Assembly (NCBI RefSeq): GCF_000372725.1
Contig: NW_005201613.1
Coordinates: forward strand, 30,290-94,289
Length of the DNA: 64,000 bases
DNA from: Emiliania huxleyi CCMP1516
Taxonomy: Eukaryota
Reading direction: 5' to 3'
The position numbers were made by a program, and so were the translations under genes. Positions 20,777-24,940 of the stretch are shown here, piece after piece. Positions within the stretch are counted from its first letter, which is position 1. Every line of letters begins with the position of its first letter. The notes beneath the pieces are model-generated. The model was not told the origin of the DNA, did no database searches, and saw only the letters and a list, made by a program, of their open reading frames with translations.

Positions 20777-23700
20777 ATGCTGTTCGTGGCGCTCCTGCAC
20801 CTGGCGACGCCGCTCGAGCCACCACAAGTGCCGCGTCTCAACCTCTACCCGCCCCGCCGAGTTGCGCTGCTCGTGGAGCCCACACCATTCACGCACATCA
20901 GCGGCTACTCCAATCGCTTCAAGGAGATGCTCCGCTTCCTGGTCGCTGCTGGCGACGAGGTGCACAGGCTGGTGGTGCGCTGTCGCCCGACCACACCGAA
21001 CCGCCTCCACCTCGCCTGGAATAGGTGACTGTGATCACGCCGGACGACACACCGGAGCGGCCGCGCTCTTTCCTCGGCGTACCGATCACCTACCTGCCCG
21101 GCTTCCGCCTTCTTTTCTACAAGCAGGCGACACTGCACTCGCGCCACCGCCGCTGACCCTCACCCTCACTCTCACCCTCACCCTCACCCTCTCCCTCTCC
21201 CTCACCCTCACCCTCACCCTCACCCGAGCAGACGCTCCTCACACCTCGTCAGGTCCAGCTCTCGCTCGACTGCCGCCGCGTCGCCCTCCGCGCCCTCCGC
21301 TCCTTCCGGCCAAGCCTCCTCCACGTCTCTGCCCTGTGAATAGTATAGCTGTGAACAGTACAGCTGTGAATAGGCCAAGCCTCCTCCACGTCTCTGCCCC
21401 CGGCGTCCTCGCCCTGCCCGCCATCCTGTGCGCGCGCCTCCCCTCGCGCGCGCCTCTCTCTGTGTGAACGGCGACTCTTCACACACGCACCCGCACCCGC
21501 GAGTGCAGGTACTCTCGCCTCCTCTCCGTCCCTCTCGTCGTCTCGTACCACACACACCTCTCCGTCTACGCCGCGCGCTACGTCACCACCCCCGGCGCCG
21601 CCTCGCCTCGCCTCTGCTCTGCTCTGCTCTCCTCTGCTCCCCTCTGCTCTCCTCTGCTCTCCTCTCCTCTGCTCTGCTCTCCTCTCCTCTCCTCTCCTCT
21701 CCTCTCCTCGCCTCGCCTCGCCTCGCCTCGCCTCGCCTCGCCTCGCCTCGCCTGTGTATGTTACCAAGGCCCGGACCCGCAGGCTTGCGCTGGCTCGCGG
21801 TGAAGCTGGCAGACGCGCTGCTGCCCCGGCTGCTCAACTGCGCCGACCTCACGCTCGCCACGAGCCCGCAGCTGCAGCAGCAGCTGCGCGCGCTCGGCTG
21901 CAGGCGCGTCGAGGGTGGGTTCGGGTACCGTGGGGTAGGGGAGGGTGGGTTCGGGTACCTTTGGGGGTAGGGGAGGCGCTCGGCTGCAGGCGCGTCGAGG
22001 TGTGGCGCAAGGGCGTCGACACGCTCACTTTCTCGCCCGCCTTCAACGCCTCCAACTCCCACGCCCGGCACGCGCTGACGGGCGGGCAGCCGCACCGGCC
22101 GCCGCTGCTGTCGCTGGACTCGTGCCGCCTCTCCCGCCGCCGCCCTCCGAGATTTGGCCGAGATCGCGTAGGCCGCTGCTGCTGTACGTCGGGCGGCTCG
22201 TAAAAAAGAAATCCCGACGCTGGGCGATTTCTTTTTTAGGCCGCTGCTGCTGTACGTCGGGCGGCTCGGCGCGGAGAAGCGCGTCGAGCTGCTGCGGCCA
22301 GGCTGTCTCGGCTCTTTGGCCAGCGAAGGTGGTGACTCGGTCACAGGCGCGTCGAGCTGCTGCGGCCAGGCTGTCTCGGCTCTTTGGCCAGCGAAGGTGG
22401 TGACTCGGTCACAGGCGCGTCGAGCTGCTGCGGCCAGGCTGTCTCGGCTCTTTGGCCAGCGAAGGTGGTGACTCGGTCACAGGCGCGTCGAGCTGCTGCG
22501 GCCAGGCTGTCTCGGCTCTTTGGCCAGCGAAGGTGGTGACTCGGTCACAGGCGCGTCGAGCTGCTGCGGCCAGGCTGTCTCGGCTCTTTGGCCAGCGAAG
22601 GTGGTGACTCGGTCACAGGCGCGTCGAGCTGCTGCGGCCAGGCTGTCTCGGCTCTTTGGCCAGCGAAGGTGGTGACTCGGTCACAGGCGCGTCGAGCTGC
22701 TGCGGCCAGGCTGTCTCGGCTCTTTGGCCAGCGAAGGTGGTGACTCGGTCACAGGCGCGTCGAGCTGCTGCGGCCAGGCTGTCTCGGCTCTTTGGCCAGC
22801 GAAGGTGGTGACTCGGTCACAGGCGCGTCGAGCTGCTGCGGCCAGGCTGTCTCGGCTCTTTGGCCAGCGAAGGTGGTGACTCGGTCACAGGCGCGTCGAG
22901 CTGCTGCGGCCAGGCTGTCTCGGCTCTTTGGCCAGCGAAGGTGGTGACTCGGTCATAGGCGCGTCGAGCTGCTGCGGCCAGGCTGTCTCGGCTCTTTGGC
23001 CAGCGAAGGTGGTGACTCGGTCACAGGCGCGTCGAGCTGCTGCGGGCGGTGCTGGACGCGAGGCCAGACGCGACTTTGGCGATAGCAGAACTGTGAAGAG
23101 TGCAGCTGTGAAGAGTGCAGCTGTGAATAGGCCGGACGCGACTTTGGCGATCGTTGGCGGGGGGCCAGCGGAGGCGAGTTCACACCGTCCTATTCACAGC
23201 TGCACTCTTCACAGCTGTACTGTTCACAGCTCTGCTCTCACACCGTCCTATTCACAGCTGCACTCTTCACCGCTGTACTGTTCACAGCTCTGCTCTCACA
23301 CCGTCCTATTCACAGCTGCACTCTTCACCGCTGTACTGTTCACAGCTCTGCTCTCACACCGTCCTATTCACAGCTGCACTCTTCACCGCTGTACTGTTCA
23401 CAGCTCTGCTCTCACACCGTCCTATTCACAGCTGCACTCTTCACCGCTGTACTGTTCACAGCTCTGCTCTCACACCGTCCTATTCACAGCTGCACTCTTC
23501 ACAGCTGTACTGTTCACAGCTCTGCTCTCACACCGTCCCTCACCAACGGTCAACACCTCCCTCTGACTGGTCTGCCCGGAGGCGAGTTTGCGCCGCGAGT
23601 TTGCCGGTGCGGCGGCGGTGTTTGCCGGCGTTTTGCGGGGGCGAGGACCTCTCGTAAAAAAGAAAGCCCCGCCCATCGGCGATTTCATTTCTACTAGGCG

Positions 23701-24940
23701 TTCTGCAGGGCGAGGACCTCTCGCGCGCGTACGCGGCGGCGGACGTCTTTGTGAGTGCCCGCCGAGTCGCCGGGCGACAGCCGCGTGACACGATTGCGGT
23801 GAGGCGTCCTGGTGGTTGGGCGCAGGTGATGCCCTCCGACTCGGAGATATGGGGAGAGATGGGGAGAGATGGGGAGAGATGTCCTGGTGGTTGGGCGCAG
23901 GTGATGCCTTCCGACTCGGAGACGCTGGGTTTCGTCGTGCTCGAGGCGATGGCTTCGGGCGTGCCCGCCGTCGCCGCCGACGCCGGCGGGCTGAGATTAG
24001 CCGAGATTGAGCCGAGATTAGCCGAGATTAGCCGAGATGCGCCGAGATGCGCCGAGATTAGCCGCCGACGCACGGCGGGCTGTCTGTTCTGGTGGCGGCC
24101 GTGACACAAAGGAGACGCGGGCCGCGCACACACGCAAGCTGTGGGCAGGCGGGCTGTCGAGCCTGGTGGCGGACGGCGAGACGGGGCTGCTGTTCACGCT
24201 CAGCTGTGAAGAGTACAGCTGTGAACAGTACAGCTGTGAATAGGCGAGACGGGGCTGCTCTTCACGCCGAACTGTGAAGAGTACAGCTGTGAACAGTACA
24301 GCTGTGAATAGGCGAGACGGGTCTGCTCTTCACGCCGAACTGTGAAGAGTACAGCTGTGAACAGTACAGCTGTGAATAGGCGAGACGGGGCTGCTCTTCA
24401 CACCGGGCGACGGGGCCGACCTGGCGGCGAAGGTTGGGCGGCTGGCCGGGGGGCCTAGAAGCTGAACCCCGTCTTCCCTGTACTCCCACCAGCGCTCGAG
24501 AGGAGCACGTCTTCCGCCGCATTCGGCCGCATTCGGCTGTGTGAGAGAGGCCTCTGATCGGCTACTACGATCTCGACTTCACAAGTCCACTTCACAAATC
24601 TGCCCCCGTGTCCCGCAGATCGACGATCCGCTGCTGCGGCGGGAGATGGGCCGAGCGGCGTGCGCCGAGGCGCGGCAGCGCGGCGTGAGACGCTCCGTCG
24701 CGAGGAGACGGGCTCCGCGTGGCTTGACCGCCACCCGGCACTTGCCACCAGGCGAGGCGGTGGAGCTGGGAGGCGGCCACGTCGGTGCTGCGCAACGAGC
24801 AGTACGCGCTGGCGGAGAGCCGCTTCCGGGAGCGGCAGCGGTGGGTCGAGGCGAAGCTGGAGGCGTGGCGGAGTCCGCTGACGCGACTGCGGAAGCGCCG
24901 CCCCCACCGGACGCGACCGAGCGTGGCCGCGTTTGCGTGA
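20777..24940 (+). CDS. SQD2: Sulfoquinovosyldiacylglycerol synthase (GT4), about 16 exons
   Basis: Spliced: RRVALLVEPTPFTHISGYSNRF, VVSYHTHL, ADLTLATS, VEVWRKGVD, LLYVGRLGAEK, LAIVGGGP, GVLQGEDLSRAYAAADVFVMPSDSETLGFVVLEAMASGVP, WSWEAATSVLRNEQY. This matches plant/algal SQD2. Confidence 0.95.
21155..21225 (+). repeat. (ACCCTC)n telomere-like hexamer tract in an SQD2 intron
   Basis: Direct reading. Confidence 0.9.
21600..21753 (+). repeat. (CTCGC/CTCTG/CTCTC)n pentamer tract in an SQD2 intron
   Basis: Direct reading. Confidence 0.9.
22279..23026 (+). repeat. 11 x 68-bp tandem array forming one SQD2 intron; every unit starts GC and ends AG
   Basis: Unit gcgcgtcgagctgctgcgg-ccaggctgtc...gtgactcggtcacag; unit starts at 22279, 22551 and 22891 fit a 68-bp period; exon resumes at 23027. 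Confidence 0.95.
23181..23538 (-). repeat. 6 x 58-bp tandem array (40-nt CTGTGAA module in reverse orientation plus 18-nt flank) in an SQD2 intron
   Basis: Unit cacaccgtc-ctattcacagctgcactcttcacMgctgtactgttcacag-ctctgctct; starts at 23181 and 23471. Confidence 0.95.
24176..24379 (+). repeat. 3 x 68-bp tandem array (exon copy plus 40-nt CTGTGAA module) forming one SQD2 intron
   Basis: Units start at 24176, 24244 and 24312; exon resumes at 24380. Confidence 0.95.

What the first reader, a model, noticed from the sequence alone, without database searches (positions are those of the whole stretch)
21309..24379. Intron-making micro-insertions with long target-site duplications in SQD2
Seen in sequence: at least 9 SQD2 introns contain a direct copy of sequence at or beside the splice junction plus a short foreign insert. 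(1) 21309-21373: 26-nt copy, 65 nt long. (2) 21904-21989: 25-nt copy centred on AG|GC. (3) 22098-22239: ~32-nt copy. (4) 22279-23026: 19-nt copy. (5) 23063-23130: ~23-nt copy, 68 nt. (6) 23174-23581: 12-nt copy. (7) 23628-23697: ~27-nt copy, 70 nt. (8) ~23751-23900: 42-nt copy. (9) 24176-24379: ~25-nt copy. In the cleanest cases the GC donor comes from the duplicated exon sequence and the insert supplies the AG, so splicing restores the conserved SQD2 protein exactly. Established: introner elements create introns but typically have TIRs and short TSDs; intron gain by duplication of a proto-splice site and by double-strand-break repair has been proposed. Inference: long, variable TSDs around tiny repeat-like inserts point to staggered nicks filled by templated (target-primed, RT/telomerase-like or repair) synthesis. 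In a GC-rich exome this would generate GC-AG introns in bulk and could help explain their abundance in Emiliania-like genomes. I do not know of a description of this system.
Basis: partly seen in the sequence, partly recalled or inferred. Interest (0 to 1): 0.93.

Follow-up and report, generated by a model that had tools for sequence, protein, structure and literature searches.

The report
Tiny inserts that build algal introns
In a coccolithophore alga's sulfolipid gene, many introns consist of a 12-42-base copy of the neighbouring exon plus a tiny repeat-family insert and are spliced out cleanly, likely because a retro-type copying process creates or lengthens introns and so would explain this alga's unusual GC-AG introns.

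Summary
The duplications are real. A 16-intron model gives an intact SQD2 (68.7% identical, no gaps, to a full-length homologue; exon 1 matches Emiliania huxleyi exactly). Intron starts copy the next exon's start far beyond chance. RNA contigs splice 5 of the 9 named introns as predicted; 4 were not tested. Two DNA runs carry an empty allele at one site, lacking the insert and one 32-nt copy. The inserts are not random filler: one 15-mer family sits in four SQD2 introns and four other genes, each with its own 11-28-nt duplication, a fixed AG end, a variable other end with microhomology, and either orientation. Two named cases lengthen old introns instead of making new ones. Best reading: non-autonomous, TPRT-like micro-introners (about 50%); rival, templated nick repair (about 30%). 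No enzyme was found. Introners are already tabulated for E. huxleyi, with duplications unresolved or short, so this is a new variant of a known kind. Neighbouring genes lack the pattern, so 'in bulk' is only indirectly supported. The scan's earlier notes showed only two other insertion-made intron cases, on other DNA.

The parts
20777..24940 (+). SQD2 (sulfoquinovosyltransferase-like) gene, 17 exons, 16 introns (13 GC-AG, 3 GT-AG)
   Evidence: Spliced model open for 442 codons, 68.7% identity over 406 aa with 0 gaps to P0017; stop at 24938-24940 read; homologues named sulfoquinovosyltransferase
21308..21399 (+). Event 1: 27-nt duplication around a 38-nt family A insert; intron 21309-21373
   Evidence: not tested against RNA
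21428..21508 (+). GT-AG intron with a decayed 18-nt copy of the next exon (14 of 18) and a family-A-like hairpin
   Evidence: hairpin likeness to an insert in L001 read from the sequence
21890..22000 (+). Event 2: 25-nt duplication around a 61-nt family C insert (two 30-mers); 86-nt intron, two equivalent registers (21890-21975 or 21904-21989)
   Evidence: RNA joint skipping 86 in X13; very high depth and unrelated flanks over the insert in DNA runs
22097..22185 (+). Event 3a: older 15-nt duplication (1 mismatch); 74-nt intron 22098-22171
   Evidence: retained alone in the empty allele
22169..22268 (+). Event 3b: 32-nt duplication starting at the old acceptor, 36-nt hairpin insert (family B); polymorphic
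   Evidence: DNA joint skipping 68 with 32 shared letters in X3 and X6; RNA joint skipping 142 in X11 and X13; hairpin z = -4.3
22279..23045 (+). Event 4: 19-nt duplication plus 49-nt insert, unit amplified 11 times; intron 22279-23026
   Evidence: tandem junction also in X11, X3, X6 (table 5c); splicing not shown
23061..23151 (+). Event 5: 23-nt duplication around a family A insert; intron 23063-23130
   Evidence: not tested against RNA
23169..23588 (+). Event 6: 12-nt duplication centred on AG|GC; intron 23174-23581
   Evidence: not tested against RNA
23180..23538 (-). Nested antisense family A insertion with an 11-nt duplication, 58-nt unit amplified 6 times; near-inverted copy of the event 5 insert
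23627..23723 (+). Event 7: 27-28-nt duplication around a decayed family B insert; intron 23628-23697
   Evidence: RNA joint skipping 70 in X13 and X15; filled in X7, X2 and L004
23751..23922 (+). Intron 8 (GT-AG, 23751-23900), lengthened by a family E 10-mer insert with a 42-nt duplication spanning the old acceptor
   Evidence: RNA joint skipping 150 in X13 and X15; very high depth and unrelated flanks over the insert
23973..24175 (+). Intron 23986-24148: older 28-nt duplication (22 of 28) plus a family F 10-mer insert with a 21-22-nt duplication spanning the old donor
   Evidence: two RNA contigs leave the window sequence at 23993, two others retain the intron (table 8)
24175..24405 (+). Event 9: 23-26-nt duplication plus family A insert, three 68-nt units; intron 24176-24379
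   Evidence: RNA joints skipping 204 in X13 and X15; single-unit allele in L004
24445..24751 (+). Last two introns (24445-24618, no copy; 24670-24751, weak 9-nt copy)
   Evidence: RNA joints skipping 174 and 82 in X13 and X15

Best explanation
These are likely tiny non-autonomous retro-type introners: short repeat-family sequences copied into staggered nicks 11-42 nt apart, which leave a long copy of the target on each side and are spliced out. Shown: duplications, insert families shared between genes, both orientations, splicing at five sites, one empty allele, copy-number variation of the unit. Inferred: a nick primes copying from the template's fixed AG end (target-primed reverse transcription by a LINE- or Penelope-like enzyme encoded elsewhere); copying stops after about 35-75 nt and joins the upstream target through microhomology; fill-in duplicates the target. 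If the target begins with G(C/T) it becomes the donor and the insert's AG the acceptor; if it contains AG|G(C/T), both sites come from the copy; either way the mRNA is unchanged, and selection keeps only such events in exons. Slippage or unequal exchange between the long copies then amplifies the unit or may remove it precisely.
For: Fixed end: in 8 of 8 independent family A insertions (4 in SQD2, 4 in other genes) the terminal AG directly abuts the downstream target copy, which starts with G, including 2 antisense cases where that AG is not the acceptor. Variable end: inserts of 37-76 nt starting at different phases; microhomology sum 16 over 7 events against a null mean of 4.8, p = 0.0005 (the antisense SQD2 event was left out because its upstream template is unknown). 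Variable, locus-specific duplications of 11-42 nt. Movement in trans: the last 37 nt of the event 9 insert and of L006 are identical. Families C and E show hundreds- to thousands-fold excess depth with 15-42 contigs per end whose flanks do not agree (0.43-0.59), and other loci with locus-specific spacers between tandem copies. Variable-length duplications, 5' truncation and very short insertions are described for non-LTR and Penelope-like elements (PMC9977147, PMC8557442, passages). GC share of donors in SQD2 is 13 of 16; GC share of GC+GT in its exons is 0.78.
Against: No reverse transcriptase, endonuclease or transposase among 61 window ORFs scanned with Pfam, and no long master copy seen; loose ends give no shared upstream body. 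No poly(A) tail and no Rfam hit at gathering score. Family E does not end in AG. Four family A events in one 3-kb gene, two of them as a near-inverted pair 49 nt apart, fit local DNA-templated copying equally well. Two RNA contigs run into intron 4 and two retain intron 23986-24148. The other genes of this window lack the pattern.
Confidence: 0.5

Rival explanations
1. Repair of paired nicks or breaks with microhomology-primed DNA-templated filler (polymerase-theta-like end joining or template switching). Abundant intronic repeats serve as templates in cis and in trans; no element-encoded enzyme is involved.
For: Microhomology at junctions; clustering of family A in SQD2 and three related copies in the L001/L002 gene; near-inverted pair of events 5 and 6 sharing a leader; many unrelated insert families; nested staggered-break introns are described in Daphnia (PMC4202315, passages).
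Against: Repair would not by itself fix one end: both antisense family A copies also stop exactly at the terminal AG. Daphnia junction repeats are 4-12 bp with mostly unknown sources.
Confidence: 0.3
2. Non-autonomous HUH-endonuclease elements (Replitron- or Helitron-like), with one precise end, one fuzzy end and hairpins.
For: Replitron-1 inserts with one fixed end, a fuzzy end and variable duplications; putative Replitrons are reported from two haptophytes (PMC10288648, parts 1-5 of 7 read). Families A and B fold as hairpins.
Against: Replitron fuzzy ends add parental flank, whereas these ends are truncated into the repeat; no terminal direct repeat; described elements are 0.9-4 kb; duplications were seen only in Chlamydomonas.
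Confidence: 0.1
3. Classical MITE-type introners moved by a cut-and-paste transposase.
For: Family B is a 13-bp inverted repeat; most classified introners are of this type (PMC12130899, section 6).
Against: Duplication length varies from 11 to 42 nt, and from 11 to 28 nt within family A; the dinoflagellate and algal examples read have fixed 3-8-nt duplications; families A, C, E, F lack paired termini.
Confidence: 0.05
4. Assembly artefact or pseudogene.
For: The window has gaps and a near-perfect 11-copy array; array copy number differs in L004.
Against: Filled alleles in independent DNA runs and L004, RNA joints in runs of three studies, and a gap-free conserved protein.
Confidence: 0.02

Closest known systems
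Introner elements (Micromonas, Aureococcus, Polarella, Symbiodinium; surveys PMC9860276 and PMC12130899)
   Same: Repeated short elements that create spliceable introns, carry one splice site and recruit the other from the duplication, or recruit both from it; work in either orientation. E. huxleyi CCMP1516 is listed: 653 elements in five families in 2022, three families in 2025 (supplement rows).
   Different: Duplications there are fixed and short (3-8 nt in the passages read); for E. huxleyi they are '?' or 'N' in 2022, and 2-4 nt or a '10bp terminal direct repeats' note in 2025. Here they are 11-42 nt and variable, inserts are truncated at one end, and the unit amplifies in tandem. I could not compare family sequences, so some listed families may be these.
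Non-LTR and Penelope-like (Chlamys) retrotransposon insertions
   Same: Fixed 3' end, 5' truncation giving very short inserts (median 128 bp for Chlamys), variable duplications, tandem and inverted arrangements.
   Different: No autonomous partner found; Chlamys inserts into existing introns at microsatellites rather than creating introns; here the tandem unit includes the target copy.
Intron gain by staggered double-strand-break repair (Daphnia) and by tandem genomic duplication
   Same: Junction direct repeats, nested secondary insertions, splice sites from a duplicated AG|GT-like site; a survey found 4-30-bp repeats near splice sites (PMC11782384, abstract).
   Different: Here the filler belongs to recurring families with a fixed end, and the repeats are longer.
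Replitron-1 / Replitron-N1
   Same: One precise end, variable duplications, copy-and-paste.
   Different: Kilobase elements with terminal direct repeats and added parental flank; under-represented in coding sequence and introns.

Membership tests
Introner (functional class) | Similar inserts at unrelated genic positions | tested here: met
   Family A in 4 SQD2 introns and 4 other genes from 5 of 6 metagenome loci; the sixth is an SQD2 allele
Introner (functional class) | Removed by splicing with the reading frame restored | tested here: met
   RNA joints for 5 of 9 named introns, including family A intron 9; intact protein. RNA is from other samples
Introner (functional class) | Intron absent at the orthologous site in relatives or strains | tested here: inconclusive
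   Empty allele only for event 3b, which lengthens an intron; events 2, 4, 7, 8, 9 filled in the DNA runs laid; no sister-species loci available
MITE-type introner | Terminal inverted repeats | tested here: not met
   Only family B is an end-to-end inverted repeat
MITE-type introner | Fixed short target duplication | tested here: not met
   11-28 nt within family A, up to 42 nt overall
Non-LTR / Penelope-like retroelement | Fixed 3' end, variable 5' end with microhomology, variable duplication | tested here: met
   8 of 8 fixed ends; microhomology p = 0.0005
Non-LTR / Penelope-like retroelement | Autonomous reverse-transcriptase element sharing the 3' end | not testable with these tools
   No genome held; none among 61 window ORFs
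Non-LTR / Penelope-like retroelement | RNA intermediate | not testable with these tools
   Only contigs were available; no Rfam match
Replitron | Short terminal direct repeats and an added parental flank | tested here: not met
   Variable ends fall inside the repeat unit; a short leader shared by events 5 and 6 is the only possible added flank
Replitron | Rep HUH transposase in the genome | not testable with these tools
   No genome held

The most novel reading that the evidence does not exclude
E. huxleyi runs a sequence-tolerant intron-copying cycle: a retro-type enzyme copies the AG-terminated 3' ends of existing introns (excised intron or pre-mRNA) into staggered nicks, so any intron family can seed new ones without reverse splicing or an element of its own. 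Donors drawn from GC-rich exons would then account for the species' 60-65% GC donors and its GA donors, and long duplications make the introns reversible and expandable into intronic minisatellites.
Probability: 0.2. Interest if true: 0.92.

Novelty: new variant of a known kind. Interest (0 to 1): 0.74.

Why it matters
The source of new spliceosomal introns is a long-standing question, and about 72% of catalogued introners have no assigned mechanism (PMC12130899, section 6). This locus shows intron creation and lengthening with an anatomy unlike MITE introners, with polymorphic filled and empty alleles in a cultured, population-sequenced alga. It gives a testable cause for E. huxleyi's GC-AG majority (61-65%, PMC4028052 passages), which that paper ascribes to genomic GC content. 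It also shows why annotation-based surveys could miss such introns: the public model of this gene reads through the inserts, and JGI models% GT donors. One alignment of intron starts to exon starts tests it genome-wide.

Tried and rejected
No whole genome is held, so the genome-wide test could not be run. Two protein searches used an out-of-frame exon 1 and are void; the in-frame search worked. The first gene model had one wrong boundary and broke frame; corrected. One script stopped part-way and was completed. Patterns for families A, C and E found 0 matches in viral contigs. Pfam on 61 of 190 window ORFs found no mobile-element enzyme. Rfam found 0 matches. No empty allele for events 7, 8, 9 in X7 or X2 or for 2 and 4 in X3 or X6; contigs drop rare variants, so this is not absence. 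An RNA loose end that seemed to link the family A leader to exon sequence of L005 was rejected as a mixed consensus of two contigs. Telomerase-like addition from one template rejected because unit variants are locus-specific and shared between distant loci. Summed contig depth was not used as a copy number. Earlier-findings look-ups returned two notes on other genomes and nothing.
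Full report
Gene and organism. The region is one gene on the + strand, starting at 20777. A 45-aa piece of exon 1 is 100% identical to E. huxleyi model EMIHUDRAFT_223825 and hits 93 of 124 candidates, several named sulfoquinovosyltransferase. Removing 16 introns gives a frame open for 442 codons that aligns to P0017 at 68.7% over 406 aa with no gaps. The organism is therefore likely E. huxleyi or a very close relative. The public model reads through several inserts.

Observation. All nine duplications are present, with lengths 27, 25, 32, 19, 23, 12, 27-28, 42 and 23-26 nt. Over all 16 introns, intron starts match their own next exon at 196 of 320 positions; mismatched pairs average 6.9 of 20, and 0 of 100,000 permutations reach the observed sum. 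In 14 of 16 introns the donor dinucleotide equals the first two exon bases, and 15 of 16 exons start with GC or GT against a background of 0.20; part of that is the general proto-splice-site bias (established knowledge). Three corrections matter. Intron 3 is an older 74-nt intron plus a newer insertion whose copy starts at its acceptor. The 42-nt copy in intron 8 spans an old acceptor. Intron 6 contains a nested antisense insertion. Further events lie in introns 21428-21508 and 23986-24148.

Splicing. Contigs from public runs were laid on two stretches. Intron 2 was skipped in 1 of 2 RNA runs and intron 3 in 2 of 2; introns 7, 8, 9 and the last two introns in 2 of 2. None of these joints appeared in the DNA runs laid beside them (0 of 2 each). 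Introns 1, 4, 5 and 6 were not tested. Against: two RNA contigs run a few bases into the insert of intron 4, and two retain intron 23986-24148, whose joint is not among those listed (3 rows were cut). Intron retention is common in this species (89% of 535 introns, PMC4028052 passages). The RNA comes from other samples than the window, so each joint shows splicing only in combination with the filled DNA alleles seen in X2, X3, X6, X7 and L004.

Polymorphism. DNA runs X3 and X6 (2 of 2) skip 68 nt with 32 shared letters at event 3b: the insert and one copy are absent. L004 has one unit in intron 9 where the window has three. The empty allele proves the duplication belongs to the insertion, but not its direction, since exchange between long copies can also delete the unit.

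The inserts are families. A 15-mer repeat (family A) occurs at 22 places in the window, all in SQD2, against 0 expected, representing four insertions. One metagenome scan gave 6 loci: one SQD2 allele and five contigs for four other genes. Each has its own duplication (15, 26-28, 28-30, 24 nt); L005 has a three-unit array; removing whole units restores open frames in L003, L005 and L006. L003 and L005 would need GA donors, which are reported as rare but validated in this species. The L001/L002 copy is antisense and takes both splice sites from an AG|GT in its duplication (read from the sequence). In 8 of 8 events the terminal AG abuts the target copy; the search pattern ended on that motif but did not require the copy to follow. 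The other end varies and shows microhomology (16 against 4.8 expected over 7 events, p = 0.0005). Family B, a hairpin, occurs twice, after the same four target bases. Families C and E show depth several hundred to several thousand times the single-copy level, with many unrelated flanks and locus-specific spacers between tandem copies; the tool warns that such depth is no copy number.

Mechanism. One fixed end, one truncated end with microhomology, variable long duplications and both orientations are the signature of target-primed reverse transcription (established for LINEs; passages on Penelope-like and Dualen elements). I put this at 0.5. No enzyme or master copy was found. Templated nick repair explains the clustering and the inverted pair of events 5 and 6 but not the fixed end of antisense copies (0.3). 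Replitron-like and MITE-like readings fail their terminal features. The intron outcome follows from the geometry: GC is 78% of GC+GT in the SQD2 exons and 13 of 16 donors are GC. That most SQD2 inserts end in AG suggests intron 3' ends as templates, but in sense events selection produces the same pattern, and family E is an exception.

Scope. A scan of the whole window for exact repeats of 14 nt or more at 35-259 nt spacing gave 30 rows: 12 in SQD2, most others in satellites, and one comparable case at 29764 outside any gene I recognised. The intron-rich neighbours show no such copies. Spread beyond SQD2 rests on four other genes and on contig flanks, not on a genome-wide count.

Literature. 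Ten searches found no description of long variable duplications at E. huxleyi introns; the library lacks most subscription papers. Seen: PMC10288648 parts 1-5 of 7; PMC12130899 section 6, passages and supplement rows (files 13 and 14 not searched); PMC9860276 supplement rows (file cut when stored) and passages of its preprint; part 1 of 4 of bioRxiv 2020.10.14.339549; abstract of PMC11782384; passages of PMC4202315, PMC4028052, PMC11282704, PMC12480563, PMC3443670, PMC8557442, PMC9977147 and bioRxiv 2022.12.15.520654. The surveys list E. huxleyi introners with duplications unresolved, absent or short, one with a 10-bp direct-repeat note; their sequences were not seen and may overlap these families.

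Verdict. Real, spliced where tested, polymorphic and family-based: a new variant of introner with long variable duplications. Interest 0.74.

Noticed in passing
window 29764-29875: A 33-nt exact direct repeat (about 47 nt with one mismatch) around a short insert, in a dispersed repeat also found at 39696-39766; not in a recognised gene.
   Followed up: no
window 22169-22239 and 23820-23900: Duplicated acceptors leave AG|GC and AG|GT sites with a zero-length exon inside introns 3 and 8, which look like natural recursive splice sites.
   Followed up: no
window 24176-24379: The first unit of intron 9 differs from units 2 and 3 at the insert's variable junction; unit 3's target copy matches the exon allele of L004. 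A second insertion at the same junction or conversion between alleles is possible.
   Followed up: partly
L001 1-1100 and L002 1-1120: A HECT-ligase-like gene (label recalled, not from a call) holds two further introns ending in a family-A-related hairpin tail, one with a 21-nt duplication in tandem and one with a decayed 12-nt copy.
   Followed up: partly
window 56951-59214: A perfect 887-nt inverted repeat and an adjacent perfect 248-nt inverted repeat; assembly artefact or fold-back duplication.
   Followed up: no
window 25119-25653, 48077-48611, 42407-42901: Three copies of a roughly 500-nt dispersed repeat (87-95% identity) with no Pfam hit in the ORFs scanned nearby.
   Followed up: no
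window 40987-42110: Internal telomere-like hexamer arrays inside a 142-nt repeat, next to a 182-nt satellite.
   Followed up: no
window 34600-38700: An intron-rich gene that looks like a multicopper oxidase (recalled motifs, not from a call) whose introns lack long duplications; a within-window contrast to SQD2.
   Followed up: partly
window 23627-23654: The intronic copy in event 7 has lost the AG that the exonic copy keeps, as expected if a cryptic acceptor was selected against.
   Followed up: no
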